40,301 nt of DNA from UHGV virus genome UHGV-0127505; one strand, 5' to 3'. The DNA is from a virus. The notes under the pieces are model-generated. The model saw only the letters and a list, made by a program, of their open reading frames with translations, was not told the origin of the DNA and did not search any database. Within the stretch, counting starts at the first letter, position 1. Each line of letters opens with the position of its first letter. The position numbers were made by a program, and so were the translations under genes. Below are positions 13,418 through 20,475 of the stretch, piece after piece.

Positions 13418-13912
13418 ATGAGAAAATTTATTTTAGCCTTTGTCATAAGTGCCTCGTTTACAGCAAATGCTGGTGTAGAGAAGTTAGGGCCGTGGATAAC
13501 AAAGTCTGAGATAAATAAAATGACTGACCAGACTGACTTTGTGGCTCTTAACTTGTCACCAGATTCATATAACAAAGCAGGTACTGATCGTGCAACTTCA
13601 CTGGTGTTGCGTTGTAGTGATAACAAAACAGATGCCTATTTATCATTCAATGATTATATGGGGTCGGACAACCCAAGAATTACAGTGCGGTTAGATGGCG
13701 GAAAGCCGGTCAAGAGTGTTTGGGGAGGTGGGGAAGGCGGTGATTCTGCATTTGCTCCACAACCAATACAATTTATAAAGACCTTGGCTAAGCATAAAAA
13801 AGCTATTTTTGGGTTTGAACCTTATGGATCAACTATGCAAGTAGTTGAGTTTGACTTGTCTGAGATTGATAAGGTTGTGGAAAAAATTTCACAGTCTTGC
13901 AATTGGAAATAA
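13418..13912 (+). CDS. Exported hypothetical protein (signal peptide), AT-rich moron
   Basis: 164 aa; AAGGAG ribosome-binding site; signal peptide MRKFILAFVISASFTANA; low GC. Confidence 0.7.
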   Translation: MRKFILAFVISASFTANAGVEKLGPWITKSEINKMTDQTDFVALNLSPDSYNKAGTDRATSLVLRCSDNKTDAYLSFNDYMGSDNPRITVRLDGGKPVKSVWGGGEGGDSAFAPQPIQFIKTLAKHKKAIFGFEPYGSTMQVVEFDLSEIDKVVEKISQSCNWK

Positions 13913-13956: not shown

Positions 13957-14308
13957 TCTGTTGTCTATAATGTATTCATAATTTTTACTGGGATACAGTG
14001 CACATAAAATCCCAATTGCGGTAGGACGATAACTGGATCAGGTGGAGGCACTTACGCAAGAATTGATTGTATTAATTTGCATAGAGCAACGCGAAGTTAT
14101 TTATAAATTAACTGATATAGAGTACTAGATGTAATCCGAACCGGTTATGATTCGTCACCAATTTTGCAAGAGGCTGGGTAGGTAAGCTATTGGATACCGT
14201 AGGTAGCAAAAATATAGAAGGAGGGGAAGAATTGCTAAACTCGAGCATTCACTTAAATCTGAGTTATTTATTGTTAAGATATAATACACTTTGAATAATA
14301 GAGGCTAT

Positions 14309-14713
14309 ATGACAACGAAAATAAGCAAAGATGATAAACATCTGCTTGATCCTTATTTAAAATGGCTTGCAAACAAGAAGCTAATGGTTGCCTTCTGGTT
14401 GGTGCTAATGATATGTGGTTGCATATATGCATATATAGAAAATGATTGGTCACTTCTTCCCCGATTCGGATGTTTAGGCATAATGATTGGCACATTGCTT
14501 ACTCTTTCTCCGCTTTTTGCAGAAGGTATCTACCTATCAAGGCGAGAAGCATTTAGTTTTGGTTCGGTACAACAAGATGGGAGCGTCACCTCAACCTCTG
14601 AAAAAGGTCGTGCAGTATCAAGGAATATTCTATGGGGTGTTATCATTATAATCATATCATCGATAATAAATGCATTTGGTGACTTAATAATGGTCACGAT
14701 TATGAATGGTTAA
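14309..14713 (+). CDS. Small integral membrane protein (about 3 predicted TM helices), AT-rich moron
   Basis: Hydrophobic segments (LMVAFWLVLMICGCIYAYI, LGIMIGTLLTLSPLF, ILWGVIIIIISSIINAF); AGAGG ribosome-binding site before ATG 14309; ORF-track start 14291. Confidence 0.55.
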   Translation: MTTKISKDDKHLLDPYLKWLANKKLMVAFWLVLMICGCIYAYIENDWSLLPRFGCLGIMIGTLLTLSPLFAEGIYLSRREAFSFGSVQQDGSVTSTSEKGRAVSRNILWGVIIIIISSIINAFGDLIMVTIMNG

Positions 14714-14792
14714 AATAATTAACATTTATGATATTAGTATTATATAACTTAGTATGCTGTTTAATTAAGTCACCGCAGACTTGACACTTGGC

Positions 14793-14891
14793 GGTAACTT
14801 CTGCGCTAAACGGTGACGTTTATACGCACATACAATCTAAATCCTCTTCTCCCTCCACAGATGCAGAAATATACCTGCGATTTTTTGCATT
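14793..14891 (+). repeat. Copy A of a roughly 100-bp direct repeat / candidate structured RNA element
   Basis: Shares GGT(A/G)ACTTCTGCGCT and CACAGATGCAGAAAT..ACCTGCGAT..TTGCAT(T/C)C with 17203-17303; adjacent hairpins differ in sequence but both pair. Confidence 0.6.
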
Positions 14892-15308
14892 CGGTGTTTT
14901 TGGCAGCCAAGAACAGGGAGTCTCTGTTTGTCTGGCGGCTAAAGGTGATATGGAAATCGTGATGTCTTGGCCTAAAGTAGTTGCAACAGTTGGAGCGATT
15001 ATGGTGGTAGTAGTGATCATCGCACCACCCATTTGCAAGGGTTGACGACATTATTTATCCGGCGCTATATTCTGTGCGTTGCCGCAAAATCGGCACACGG
15101 GATTGGCGTCCCGGAATACTACTCAACGCATACCGCGTTAAGCGGTTTTTTTATGCGCTAAGCACGGCTACGCCCAAATTATGGTGGGCTGTGTGAGGGC
15201 TTCTTCGGGAGCGCCGGGTTTGAGTAGCCGGTTACGCCAACCTTGCACAGTTCACCACCAGTCGATTGGCGTCGTTGGTGGTGATGGTTAACCTGATGAG
15301 GTGATACT

Positions 15309-15917
15309 ATGACTACTCAATTAGCATTCCACAAAACGACGTTTACCCCAATTTGCCACAATAACAGAATTTGGCTTACTGCCACTGAAGTTGGTTTAGC
15401 TCTGGAATATGCGGACGATAAAGCAGTTCAGCGCATTTACTCTCGTCACTCAGATGAATTTACAGATATGATGACAAGGGTGGTCAAAGTGACCACCCCT
15501 CGTGGAATGCAGGAGTCTCGAGTATTTAGCCTTCGCGGAGCCCATTTGATCGCCATGTTTGCACGAACTCCTGTAGCCAAAGAGTTCCGCCGCTGGGTTC
15601 TGGATATTCTCGATCGAGAAGTTCAACAATCCCCGATCACAAAACAATTCACTGATAACGAACTTTGCACACTCGCCTGGTTATGGCGAGCAAGTGATAC
15701 GATGTTAATCGCCTGCCAGAACGTTACTCCACTTCTTCAGGTTGCGGAGCACCGCGAAGCCGGTCGCTTTACTTCTATCAGTCAGGAATATCCCCTGATA
15801 CTCAGCAAGGCGCGAGCAATCCTTGCCAGAGAAACGGCGCATGTAAAATTCCAACCGTGGCAGGATGATAAGTGGAGCAGGGTATTGCCACATTTGCGTC
15901 AGGCTAGATTGCAATAG
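15309..15917 (+). CDS. Bro-N domain protein (phage antirepressor-like)
   Basis: 202 aa; N-terminus (ICHNNRIWLTATEVGLALEYADDKAVQRIYSRHSDEF) typical of Bro-N / antirepressor proteins. Confidence 0.65.
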   Translation: MTTQLAFHKTTFTPICHNNRIWLTATEVGLALEYADDKAVQRIYSRHSDEFTDMMTRVVKVTTPRGMQESRVFSLRGAHLIAMFARTPVAKEFRRWVLDILDREVQQSPITKQFTDNELCTLAWLWRASDTMLIACQNVTPLLQVAEHREAGRFTSISQEYPLILSKARAILARETAHVKFQPWQDDKWSRVLPHLRQARLQ

Positions 15918-16079
15918 TTTTACATATTAGGCGCTGAATGGATGCAAGCAGGTAGCGCACTGGGCGGCAATGATTAAGGCTTCAGATAAGCCAAGTAAGC
16001 ACTGAAGAAGTTCAATGTAATCAAATTCTCTTTATGGTATTTTCGTTAGACCCCTCATGCACTTAGATGGAAATTTGAA

Positions 16080-16280
16080 ATGATGTATTCAGTGACTTTC
16101 GATGATACTGGACGAGTAGAAGATATTGAACTAGATCGTGAGGTTAGAGCCGGAGATAGACTCTCGCTTAATATTGATGGTCTTGATGGTATTTATATAG
16201 TCATGACTGTTAGCGGCCCTATCTATGAAAATGTTTGTATGCCAATGAATATCCGGGTTCAAAAGTATTGGAAGCAATGA
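16080..16280 (+). CDS. Hypothetical protein (66 aa)
   Basis: ORF only; AT-rich. Confidence 0.35.
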   Translation: MMYSVTFDDTGRVEDIELDREVRAGDRLSLNIDGLDGIYIVMTVSGPIYENVCMPMNIRVQKYWKQ

Positions 16281-16296
16281 TGTATAATCCCCTCAG

Positions 16297-16542
16297 ATGC
16301 TCGAGGGGATTTTTATGTCAGACTGGAACATTGCAGCAAAACCGCAAAAGGAACGTGACAAGGTAAGCGTTGGCCTTGCGCTTTCAGGTGTAGCGTATAA
16401 AGAACGCCCGAACATGCCGGTTATAGCTAAACAGGTAGCTAGAGAACAACTTGGGCATCTCCGCGAGTACTTAATGGATCGCGTCCGTTATTACCGTAAG
16501 CAGAGCATCACCTTCCAAAAGCATCCGAACCACGCTACATAG
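16297..16542 (+). CDS. Hypothetical protein (81 aa; start possibly ATG at 16315)
   Basis: ORF only. Confidence 0.4.
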   Translation: MLEGIFMSDWNIAAKPQKERDKVSVGLALSGVAYKERPNMPVIAKQVAREQLGHLREYLMDRVRYYRKQSITFQKHPNHAT

Positions 16543-16557
16543 AAATGGCAGACTTAA

Positions 16558-17145
16558 ATGCAAGAAAATGAAAAGCAAGAGCAGCATGAAACTGAACCTC
16601 AGGATTTAGATTTTCCAGCAGAATTTGACTCTCTGATTAATGCAAATGGAAAGATAACACCTGCATTGCTAACGGTAGTTAACCGGTATTTTTTATATTT
16701 TTCATTCTTTGAATCACTTCTTTTGGGGTGTTCTGGAAGTCAGGGGAAGAGTTCGAAATACGCAGCGAAATTGTTGGAATTCAAATTAGTTGATCTTGAC
16801 GTTCTTAAGCGAACATACTTCTTTTTTGCAGACCGTTATCTGGCAGATGTAGTGAAGTTTGAAAACCTATGTGGTGATTTAGAGCATACATCGCAGAAGG
16901 CTAGGGATGAAAAAATTAAGGCCATGCAATTAAAGACAAACGACCCTGAAATTCAGTTAGGTGTTTGTATTTTTGTTTGTTTCAGGTTGCGAAACAACCT
17001 TTTTCATGGACCAAAATGGCGTTATTTGCTTGATGGGCAAGAGGATTTGCTCTTAATTGCCGGAAATTTTATACATTCTATTCTATTACAGGTGCCTAGT
17101 AGAGATGGCTGGGAATTCAAGAATATTTTAACTTCTACTGATTAG
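16558..17145 (+). CDS. Hypothetical protein with an Rx4HG (HEPN-like) motif; candidate abortive-infection RNase (tentative)
   Basis: 195 aa; AT-rich; motif RLRNNLFHG near the C-terminus matches the HEPN R-x4-6-H signature. Confidence 0.5.
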   Translation: MQENEKQEQHETEPQDLDFPAEFDSLINANGKITPALLTVVNRYFLYFSFFESLLLGCSGSQGKSSKYAAKLLEFKLVDLDVLKRTYFFFADRYLADVVKFENLCGDLEHTSQKARDEKIKAMQLKTNDPEIQLGVCIFVCFRLRNNLFHGPKWRYLLDGQEDLLLIAGNFIHSILLQVPSRDGWEFKNILTSTD

Positions 17146-17202
17146 CTTTGATTTTCCATAATCAACCCGCCATAATCATGTCATCGGAGCCTGAACAACT
17201 CC

Positions 17203-17303
17203 GGTGACTTCTGCGCTTTGAGGGGACTCAAAGTGCAAACGACAATCAGAACACCTTTCAACCAGTCACAGATGCAGAAATGCACCTGCGATATCTTGCA
17301 TCC
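17203..17303 (+). repeat. Copy B of the roughly 100-bp direct repeat / candidate structured RNA element
   Basis: See copy A; hairpins CGGAG-cctgaacaa-CTCCG and TTGAG-ggga-CTCAA occupy the same positions as ACCGC...GCGGT and AAACG-gtga-CGTTT in copy A. Confidence 0.6.
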
Positions 17304-17330
17304 AACGTTTGACCTCTGCGGAGGTGAAGC

Positions 17331-17786
17331 GTGAACCTCCCACAAGATGGCATCAAATTACATCGCGGTAACTTCACCGCTATCGGTCGGCAGATCCAGC
17401 CTTATCTGGAGGAGGGCAAATGCTTTCGCATGGTGCTTAAACCGTGGCGTGAGAAACGCAGTCTTTCCCAGAATGCACTCAGCCACATGTGGTACAGCGA
17501 AATCAGTGAATACCTCATCAGCAGGGGTAAAACGTTCGCTACTCCAGCTTGGGTAAAAGATGCTCTCAAACACACATATCTCGGTTATGAAACCAAAGAC
17601 CTGGTTGATGTCGTAACCGGTGATATCACCACTATCCAGTCGTTACGCCATACCTCCGATCTTGATACCGGAGAGATGTATGTCTTCCTGTGTAAGGTTG
17701 AAGCCTGGGCGGTGAATATTGGCTGCCACCTGACTATTCCGCAGAGCTGCGAGTTCCAGCTGCTCCGCGACAAGCAGGAGGCGTAA
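17331..17786 (+). CDS. ybcN: NinB/Orf-family recombination mediator (DLP12 YbcN-like)
   Basis: 151 aa; GTG start with GGAGGTG ribosome-binding site; recognised as the DLP12 YbcN type. Confidence 0.7.
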
Positions 17787-19392: not shown

Positions 19393-20475
19393 TTAGAACT
19401 GGTAAACCATACCTACAGCAACGATATCATCGGTAGCAACGCCAGATGCTTTCGTGAAATCGCTCTTATCAATCAGGTTGATTTTGTAGTCAACAAAAGT
19501 GGACATATTTTTGTTGAAGTAATAGGTTGCACCTACATCAACATATTCAACCAGGTCCTGATCACCCCAAACACCCAAGTCTTTTCCTTTAGAATGCAGG
19601 TAAGCAACGGATGGACGCAGGCCGAAGTCGAACTGATATTGTGCAACAGCTTCGAAGTTTTGTGCTTTGTTGGCAATATGGTTATTACCAAAAACAGTCA
19701 TGTTCTGGGTTTCAGAATAGGTGGTGGCCAGATAGATGTTGTTCGCATCATATTTCAGACCAGCTGCCCATACTTCAGCATTTTGACCAGATGCATTCAG
19801 GCTGTTGTTACCGTAGATAACCTGATTATTAGTGCGGTCAGATTTAGCATAGGTTGCACCTACACCGAATCCTTCATACTCATAAGTAGTGGAGAAACCG
19901 AAACCATCACCATTAGCTTCAGTTACGTCAGTGCGGTCATTTTTACCCTGATACTGAGCAGCAACGTTCAGACCATCAACCAGACCAAAGAAGTCATTGT
20001 TACGATAAGTTGCAACACCTGTGGTGCGACCAGTCATGAATACATCTGTTTGGGTCCAGGTATCGCCACCGAATTCTGGCAGAACGTCAGTCCACGCACC
20101 GATGTCGTATGCTACACCGTAGTTACGGCCGTAATCGATTGAGCCGTAGTCACCGAATTTCAGGCCTGCAAATGCAAGACGGGTTTTGTCTTTGGAGGAA
20201 CCTTGAGATTCAGCGCGGTTGCCTTTGAATTCATATTCCCACTGACCGAAACCAGTCAGTTGATCGTTGATTTGGGTTTCACCTTTGAAGCCAAGACGGG
20301 CATAAGTAGTATCACCATCATCTGCATCATTAGAGGAGAAGTAGTGCTTAGCATTAACTTTCCCGTACAGATCCAGCTTGTTACTGTCTTTATTATAAAT
20401 TTCAGCTGCCTGAGCAGACATCGCCATCAGTACTGATGCAGCTACAGCAGAAATTGCCACTGTTAATTTTTTCAT
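19393..20475 (-). CDS. nmpC: Phage-encoded outer-membrane porin (NmpC/Lc/OmpC family), lysogenic-conversion gene
   Basis: 360 aa with signal peptide, C-terminal VGMVYQF beta-barrel signature; located between Q and S as in DLP12. Confidence 0.9.

What the first reader, a model, noticed from the sequence alone, without database searches (positions are those of the whole stretch)
16558..17145. AT-rich ORF with HEPN-like Rx4HG motif in the nin-region cassette
The 195-aa protein has no homologue I recognise but contains RLRNNLFHG, which matches the R-x4-6-H signature of HEPN RNases, a fold common in abortive-infection and toxin proteins. It is in the same cassette as a Bro-N antirepressor-like gene (15309..15917) and two small ORFs, within a strongly AT-rich segment.
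Basis: inference. Interest (0 to 1): 0.55.

Follow-up and report, generated by a model that had tools for sequence, protein, structure and literature searches.

The report
Uncurated solo HEPN-like prophage gene
The 195-codon gene is real and belongs to a large, completely unannotated protein family that looks like a stand-alone HEPN-type RNA-cutting enzyme carried in a swap-prone slot of lambda-like prophages, so it is a good but unproven candidate for a new phage-defence (abortive-infection) gene.

The parts
16558..17145 (+). 195-aa ORF: a member of an unannotated, predicted HEPN-superfamily family
16558..16599 (+). N-terminal acidic, Q/E-rich segment (residues 1-14) predicted to be disordered; absent from distant family members
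   Evidence: pLDDT below 50 for residues 1-14. Distant members start at about residue 20-35 of the query.
16711..16713 (+). Codon of E52, an invariant acidic residue at the end of the first long helix
   Evidence: Invariant in A1, A2 and A6. Helix 35-56.
16834..16839 (+). Codons of R93-Y94, an invariant or nearly invariant pair at the end of helix 80-96
16984..17016 (+). Codons of R143-L-R145-N-N-L-F-H150-G-P-K153: the Rx4H core motif, with N after the R and an invariant K
   Evidence: Read directly from the sequence. Invariance. Synonymous variation without a conserved RNA hairpin. Position at the end of helix 130-149, or 113-132 in model 2.
16315..16542 (+). DNA pol III theta (Hot-like) homologue, 75 aa. 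It is the upstream operon neighbour and the conserved left flank of the slot. In relatives its stop codon abuts the ATG of the 195-aa gene (TAAATG).
   Evidence: PF06440 E=7e-25. Intact or decayed theta lies upstream in 36 loci. Junction alignment.
17147..17310 (+). Conserved pre-ybcN linker (phage 82 'orf33' region with a putative promoter and hairpin). It is the right boundary of the slot and starts at the stop codon of the ORF.
   Evidence: The same junction occurs in K. oxytoca.
14765..14903 (+). Diverged second copy of the same linker: the left boundary of the four-gene cassette
   Evidence: (repeat D1, 82%).
15065..15262 (+). C4 antisense RNA / isrK element with a1/b1 targets, heading the cassette just upstream of the antirepressor gene
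   Evidence: Rfam: RF01695 72.7 bits (gathering threshold 45), RF01394 60.7 bits (gathering threshold 50), RF03163 40.6 bits (below threshold).
15309..15917 (+). Bro-N + P22_AR_C antirepressor-like gene, the first protein gene of the cassette
   Evidence: Pfam and PHROG matches.
16080..16280 (+). 66-aa ORF (phrog_38858, unknown function), followed by a terminator-like hairpin at 16286-16311

Best explanation
The gene encodes a stand-alone ('solo') protein of the HEPN superfamily, from a sequence family that no curated database describes. It is carried as an exchangeable accessory gene of a lambdoid prophage.

Proposed mechanism:
- The helical domain oligomerises so that R145/N146/H150 form a metal-independent RNase site. 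E52, R93/Y94, K153 and Q161 lie at the same end of the bundle and assist.
- The enzyme is kept latent and is switched on by a component of an infecting or competing phage.
- It then cuts tRNA or other RNA, halts translation, and aborts or excludes that phage. This protects the lysogen population and the resident prophage.

Shown here: it is a real gene under selection; the family-wide invariant residues; the all-alpha fold with the motif at the canonical HEPN position; HEPN domains as the best structural matches; no obligatory partner gene; residence in a prophage hot spot and in defence islands.

Inferred: RNase activity, oligomerisation, latency and trigger, the RNA target, and the defence phenotype.
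For: Gene and family:
- The motif is invariant and is conserved at the protein level rather than the RNA level.
- Purifying selection, dN/dS 0.22-0.33.

Structure:
- Two confident models: pLDDT 82.6 / pTM 0.79 and pLDDT 91.1 / pTM 0.88.
- The motif position and the N after the R match the criteria of PMC3710099.

Context:
- No conserved neighbour in 80 chromosomal loci; the largest neighbour cluster covers 7 of 80.
- Neighbours are enriched in conflict genes: T5orf172, AAA_21/AbiEii-like, OLD-TOPRIM, Cap4, TIR, GmrSD_C, PLD, DUF3800.
- Close and distant alleles sit in the same lambdoid slot.
- Near-identical backbones carry alleles only 28-30% identical: ybcN is 95% and 82% identical where the occupant is 30% and 28%. 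This pattern is typical of arms-race genes.

Against: - Foldseek against the PDB found nothing (best E = 3).
- No Pfam HEPN family matches any of 60 members, even at E <= 1.
- No PADLOC or NCBIfam hit.
- hhalign against a shallow DUF4145-type HEPN profile gave probability below 1%.
- The invariant E52 is not in an Ex3[KR] context.
- No promoter above chance lies upstream (3 promoter-like sites against 4.0 +/- 2.3 expected). The gene lies inside the pR delayed-early operon, downstream of a c4-controlled antirepressor. Expression in the lysogen, which a defence role needs, is therefore not shown.
- No toxicity, RNase or phage-challenge data exist.
Confidence: 0.5

Rival explanations
1. It is a HEPN-type RNase, but it works for the phage during lytic growth rather than for the lysogen. 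It would be expressed from pR as a delayed-early gene and would cut host or competitor RNA, for host takeover, counter-defence, or exclusion of co-infecting phages during induction.
For: The gene lies in the early-right operon between the replication genes and ybcN...Q. No promoter above chance lies upstream. It appears translationally coupled to the upstream theta gene. Fifty-one viral contigs carry family members in the same operon position.
Against: Most family members are in bacterial chromosomes and plasmids, next to defence-type genes and without phage genes. None of 50,697 deposited phage genomes has a homologue. Allelic replacement on identical backbones fits defence hot spots better than a core lytic function.
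Confidence: 0.2
2. It is a conserved helical protein whose R...H block is structural or binding, not catalytic. It might be an adaptor, regulator or inhibitor that binds a host or phage factor, and the resemblance to HEPN would be a generic four-helix-bundle similarity.
For: Weak fold scores, with non-HEPN helical hits at similar Z. Foldseek negative. No profile link to any HEPN family. The bare motif is common by chance.
Confidence: 0.15
3. It is the toxin of a two-gene toxin-antitoxin-like module in which the upstream theta (Hot-like) protein is the antitoxin or regulator.
For: A small gene lies upstream and a larger one downstream, with stop and start abutting (TAAATG) and no Shine-Dalgarno. 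Theta or its remnant lies directly upstream in 36 loci, including the 26-33% identity clade.
Against: Theta is frameshifted or reduced to a remnant in K. oxytoca, K. pneumoniae and several viral contigs, and is absent in Salmonella and Citrobacter, while the 195-aa gene stays intact. None of the 80 non-enterobacterial loci has theta. Accessory theta occurs in about 140 of 5,426 E. coli genomes, mostly followed by other genes. Theta is therefore better explained as the conserved left flank or operon leader.
Confidence: 0.07

Closest known systems
HepS (STM14_3211) of Salmonella prophage Gifsy-1: 'HEPN solo' abortive-infection anticodon nuclease (Nature 2026, PMC13043305; PDB 9OIJ/9OIK)
HepT / DUF86-type HEPN toxins of HEPN-MNT toxin-antitoxin systems (1wwp TTHA0636, 1jog HI0074, 7ae2, 8xdj, 5yep)
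   Different: No adjacent MNT nucleotidyltransferase antitoxin. No DUF86 Pfam match. This protein is 30-60 residues larger, with extra helices between the core hairpins.
Other stand-alone or prophage-borne HEPN defence effectors (ApeA, AbiD/AbiF, and Tha of S. aureus prophages, PMC11087260)
   Same: A single effector gene with an Rx4-6H motif, on mobile elements or defence islands. These act by abortive-infection logic.
   Different: No PADLOC or Pfam model of these systems matches. The domain sizes and architectures differ.
PHROG phrog_27260 (unknown function)
   Same: It is the only library profile that matches (E=7e-9 over residues 36-174). It is presumably the phage-derived subset of the same family.
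   Different: It carries no annotation and so adds no functional information.

Membership tests
HEPN superfamily (Anantharaman et al. 2013, PMC3710099) | Conserved Rx4-6H motif | tested here: met
   R145-x4-H150 is invariant in A1 (23 sequences), A2 (60 sequences, 17-31% identity) and A6 (74 sequences).
HEPN superfamily (Anantharaman et al. 2013, PMC3710099) | Polar residue (N, D or H) immediately after the conserved R | tested here: met
   N146 is invariant in the close family and nearly invariant (N or H) in the wide family. Criterion quoted.
HEPN superfamily (Anantharaman et al. 2013, PMC3710099) | [quoted passage not shown] | tested here: met
   Model 1: helix 130-149, then H150, a loop or short helix, and the last helix 161-178. 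Model 2: helix 113-132, H133, a loop, and the last helix 145-161. Criterion quoted. This rests on predicted structures only.
HEPN superfamily (Anantharaman et al. 2013, PMC3710099) | All-alpha four-helix up-down core resembling solved HEPN domains | tested here: met
HEPN superfamily (Anantharaman et al. 2013, PMC3710099) | Second conserved acidic residue upstream, typically Ex3[KR] in helix 2 | tested here: inconclusive
   E52 is invariant. However, it is not followed by K/R at +4, and it lies at the end of the first long helix of the models. The mapping of helices onto the HEPN core is uncertain.
HEPN superfamily (Anantharaman et al. 2013, PMC3710099) | Sequence or profile match to a recognised HEPN family | tested here: not met
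   No Pfam hit for the protein or for 59 relatives at E <= 1. hhalign against a DUF4145-type HEPN alignment gave probability below 1% (the reference was shallow). HHpred against the full clan was not available.
HEPN superfamily (Anantharaman et al. 2013, PMC3710099) | Metal-independent endoRNase activity from a composite dimer site | not testable with these tools
   This needs biochemistry, or at least multimer structure prediction.
HepS family (solo HEPN Abi, Gifsy-1) | Sequence or structural homology to HepS (9OIJ) | tested here: not met
HepS family (solo HEPN Abi, Gifsy-1) | Single gene without a conserved partner, in a lambdoid prophage accessory region | tested here: met
   Theta is frequent upstream but dispensable.
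HepS family (solo HEPN Abi, Gifsy-1) | Constitutive expression in the lysogen, activation by the tail-tip protein J, and anticodon-loop cleavage | not testable with these tools
   Only consensus promoter scans were possible, and they showed nothing above chance.
HEPN-MNT (HepT-MntA) type II/VII toxin-antitoxin | Adjacent minimal nucleotidyltransferase antitoxin, and a DUF86 toxin | tested here: not met
   No nucleotidyltransferase among the neighbours in the window or in related loci. No DUF86 match.
Type III toxin-antitoxin / RNA antitoxin | Tandem RNA repeats next to the toxin gene | tested here: not met
   No tandem repeats in 14500-17500. The only Rfam hits are C4/isrK, about 1.3 kb upstream, which belong to the antirepressor gene.

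The most novel reading that the evidence does not exclude
The theta (Hot-like) gene and the HEPN-like gene form a functional two-gene unit. A mimic of the replisome's epsilon-binding theta subunit would gate or sense for a latent RNase. For example, it could release or activate the RNase when phage replication perturbs Pol III. Translational coupling (TAAATG) would set the stoichiometry of the two proteins. This would be a new sensor-effector or toxin-antitoxin pairing that links replisome status to HEPN activation.
Probability: 0.07. Interest if true: 0.8.

Novelty: new member of a known kind. Interest (0 to 1): 0.45.

Why it matters
If the prediction holds, this is a second solo-HEPN family that is not detectably related in sequence to HepS. 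It occupies the same kind of accessory slot of lambdoid prophages, and it also occurs on plasmids and in defence islands across Proteobacteria. The family has at least 538 clusters at 50% identity. It is invisible to Pfam, NCBIfam and PADLOC, so current defence-system annotation misses it.

The slot shows a striking pattern. Near-identical phage backbones carry alleles only 28-30% identical, between fixed flanks (theta on the left, the ybcN linker on the right). This gives a natural set of variants for asking what solo HEPN nucleases sense and how prophages avoid triggering their own nuclease.

The gene is small, has clear catalytic-residue candidates (R145, H150, E52, R93, K153), and is easy to test in E. 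coli K-12.

Tried and rejected
- Curated libraries. Pfam, NCBIfam and PADLOC gave nothing for the protein. Pfam gave nothing coherent for 60 family members. PHROGs matched only an unknown-function family.
- PDB sequence searches with two family profiles gave no relevant hit at E <= 10.
- Foldseek against the PDB gave nothing. The afdb50 library was unavailable.
- tblastn against 50,697 phage genomes gave no hit.
- Conserved partner. All-vs-all clustering of neighbours in 80 loci found none. The apparent recurrent downstream ORF of about 250-290 aa turned out not to be one family.
- Own promoter or terminator (moron architecture). Consensus scans around the gene and two homologues were at or below chance.
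- The terminator-like hairpin inside the gene (16984-17000) coincides with the motif codons. It was rejected as incidental, because homologues vary at synonymous sites and do not keep the hairpin.
- Type III antitoxin-like repeats: none.
- Theta as antitoxin was considered and largely rejected, because theta decays or is absent while the gene persists.
- Profile-profile link to a curated HEPN family. I seeded a DUF4145-type HEPN alignment from a neighbour in L063. hhalign was negative in default, local and global modes. The reference was shallow (Neff about 2), so this is only a weak negative.
- The HepS sequence could not be obtained, because no supplements are held. No direct pairwise comparison was therefore possible.

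Full report
**1. Observation**

RLRNNLFHG is residues 143-151 (nt 16984-17010).

A bare R-x4-6-H is not evidence by itself. It appears in 39% of shuffles of this protein and in 18 of 36 long ORFs of the window. The stricter R[NDH]x3-5H appears in 6.7% of shuffles.

The ORF is AT-rich (36.9% GC against 49.8% for the window), but the Bro-N and theta genes of the same cassette are about 48% GC.

**2. It is a real gene in a real, large and unannotated family**

- The word-index search found 40 clusters in Escherichia, Klebsiella, Citrobacter, Enterobacter and Salmonella at 55-72% identity. All are labelled 'hypothetical'.
- In their alignment the block C-x-FVCFRLRNNLFHGPKW is invariant.
- An exhaustive HMM search found 538 representatives (49 at E <= 1e-10), mostly single-domain proteins of 160-180 aa.
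- At 17-31% identity, E52, R93, R145, H150 and K153 remain invariant. F44, Y94, L104, R143, N147, F149, G151 and Q161 are nearly invariant.
- The 13-residue peptide is encoded by 17 different nucleotide versions that differ at synonymous sites. The small hairpin that a terminator scan reported there is not conserved, so selection acts on the protein.
- dN/dS is 0.22 (K. oxytoca against Enterobacter) and 0.33 (Salmonella against Citrobacter).
- No Pfam, NCBIfam or PADLOC model matches the protein. No Pfam model matches any of 60 relatives. A profile search of the annotated database returned 111 proteins, all without names or domains. No PDB chain is related by sequence. Only phrog_27260, of unknown function, matches.

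**3. Fold**

Model 1 (the window protein with 23 sequences) has pLDDT 82.6 and pTM 0.79. It is all-alpha, with helices at 35-56, 62-74, 80-96, 98-105, 113-125, 130-149, 152-157 and 161-178. Model 2 is a 167-aa Alcaligenes member about 28% identical, modelled with 74 diverse sequences. It has pLDDT 91.1 and pTM 0.88 and the same helix order.

[quoted passage not shown] Both models place R145...H150 (R128...H133 in model 2) at exactly that position, followed by one final helix, and N follows the R.

Evidence against:
- Foldseek found nothing.
- E52 is not in an Ex3[KR] context.
- A profile-profile comparison with a DUF4145-type HEPN alignment that I built from a neighbouring gene was negative, although that reference was shallow.

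I estimate about a 70% probability of HEPN-superfamily membership. That estimate is my inference, not a tool result.

**4. Genomic setting in the window**

The prophage lies beside ybhC, the lambda attachment region. The gene order is:
- replication genes O and P, then ren;
- a TagO/VasI-like gene;
- a 140-aa membrane protein;
- [linker copy, 14765-14903];
- C4/isrK RNA (15065-15262);
- Bro-N/P22_AR_C antirepressor (15309-15917);
- a 66-aa ORF, then a hairpin;
- theta homologue (16315-16542);
- the 195-aa gene;
- [linker, 17147-17310];
- ybcN, ninE, ybcO, rusA, ylcG, Q.

The two linker copies are about 80% identical. Both correspond to the 'orf33 / putative promoter / regulator-binding hairpin' region of phage 82. 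Strain EC77 has the same backbone with two different hypothetical genes in the slot. Homology to other lambdoids resumes at the stop codon of the 195-aa gene. The gene is rare: 2 of 5,426 complete E. coli genomes carry it, and no deposited phage genome does.

**5. Context of relatives**

Close homologues always lie in lambdoid prophages, between the replication genes and NinB/YbcN/DUF1367...Q. Their upstream genes differ: ImmA/HTH, a colicin-like gene, methylase fragments, or theta.

Fifty-one IMG/VR viral contigs carry family members. About 30 of these are only 25-39% identical. Typing the neighbours of 16 of these distant copies showed the same early-right operon (Rep_O, P, NinB, DUF1367, YbcO, RusA, Q).

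Theta is intact, frameshifted or reduced to a 3' remnant directly upstream in 36 loci, including the distant clade. It is absent from all 80 non-enterobacterial loci.

Flanks and occupant are decoupled:
- In L134, ybcN is 95% identical to the window's but the occupant is 30% identical.
- In L129, ybcN is 82%, theta 52% and the occupant 28%.

In intact arrangements theta's TAA abuts the ATG (TAAATG) with no Shine-Dalgarno, which suggests translational coupling. The window has a CAG-to-TAG change 15 nt earlier. Accessory theta genes are far more common (about 140 of 5,426 genomes) and are usually followed by other genes. I therefore read theta as the conserved left flank or operon leader, not as an antitoxin.

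Outside Enterobacteriaceae the family is chromosomal or plasmid-borne. It has no conserved neighbour. Its neighbourhood is rich in conflict and mobile-element genes: T5orf172/MUG113, AAA_21, SMC_N, OLD-TOPRIM, Cap4, CAP12/Pycsar TIR, TIR_2, ArdC, GmrSD_C, PLD, DUF3800 and a resolvase.

**6. Comparison with what is known**

The window protein is not a detectable HepS relative. It is also not a member of any curated HEPN family. Its best structural neighbours are DUF86/HepT toxins, but there is no MNT partner.

I therefore file it as a new family of a known kind: a solo HEPN effector on a prophage.

**7. Mechanism and rivals**

| Reading | Confidence |
|---|---|
| Latent oligomeric HEPN RNase, triggered by a phage component, cutting tRNA or mRNA to abort or exclude infection | 0.5 |
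| The same enzyme serving the phage's own lytic programme (no promoter above chance was found; it sits in the pR operon behind a c4-controlled antirepressor) | 0.2 |
| A non-catalytic helical binder | 0.15 |
| A theta-HEPN toxin-antitoxin pair | 0.07 |

Expression timing, activity, target and trigger are all untested.

**8. Verdict**

The novelty is moderate. The gene is a well-defined, easily testable candidate rather than a surprise.

Noticed in passing
window 15065-15262 (+): A C4 antisense RNA (RF01695, 72.7 bits), an isrK sRNA match (RF01394, 60.7 bits) and a1/b1 target sites (RF03163, just below threshold) lie immediately upstream of the Bro-N/P22_AR_C gene. Together they form a P1 immI-like or Gifsy-1 isrK-anrP-like antirepressor control module at the head of the cassette.
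   Followed up: partly
window 7642-9576 (-): A 644-aa, very AT-rich ORF lies directly after the cI-like S24 repressor, in the rexAB position. It has a SIR2_2 domain and strong PADLOC matches to the SIR2 modules of Argonaute-associated proteins, and also to PDC-S65. It is a separate candidate NADase-type defence gene. The related prophage in strain EC77 has DUF6932 plus a hypothetical gene there instead.
   Followed up: partly
window 14765-14903 and 17147-17310: Two diverged direct copies (about 80% identical) of the conserved pre-ybcN linker bracket the four-gene cassette. The linker is the phage 82 orf33 region, with a putative promoter and the hairpin GTCACCGGAG...CTCCGGTGAC. This looks like a mosaic boundary sequence used for module exchange.
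   Followed up: yes
window 16315-16542 (+); loci L101, L112, L129 and others: A phage-borne DNA pol III theta (Hot-like) gene is the fixed left neighbour of the slot in many lambdoid prophages. It is often frameshifted or reduced to its 3' part. In the window a CAG-to-TAG change shortens it by 5 codons relative to its relatives. About 140 of 5,426 E. coli genomes carry such an accessory theta.
   Followed up: yes
L129, L134, L137, L152 (IMG/VR); E. coli strain C4, L155 2501-3019: A second clade of the same family, only 26-33% identical to the window protein, occupies the identical slot on closely related lambdoid backbones. In L134 ybcN is 95% identical. This clade is present in 1 of 5,426 E. 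coli genomes.
   Followed up: partly
window 13418-13912 (+) and 14291-14713 (+): Two further accessory genes lie after ren. One is a TagO/VasI-like protein with a signal peptide (PF11319, phrog_1848). The other is a 140-aa predicted membrane protein with no family match.
   Followed up: no
window 19393-20475 (-): An OmpC/NmpC-like porin gene lies on the opposite strand between Q and the lysis genes, as in DLP12-type prophages.
   Followed up: no
L007-L009 3781-5478 (K. oxytoca prophages): Upstream of the homologue lies a 377-aa protein with a weak colicin-domain hit, and a convergent 178-aa gene. This may be a toxin/immunity pair in the same variable region.
   Followed up: no
L063 3297-3944 (Kiloniella antarctica): A DUF4145-type HEPN-clan protein with an N-terminal membrane segment lies about 1 kb upstream of the family member in this genome. 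Two different HEPN-like genes therefore share one island.
   Followed up: partly
window 16286-16311 (+): A terminator-like hairpin (9-bp stem followed by a T-run) lies between the 66-aa ORF and the theta gene, overlapping the alternative ATG at 16297. It may separate the antirepressor unit from theta and the 195-aa gene.
   Followed up: no
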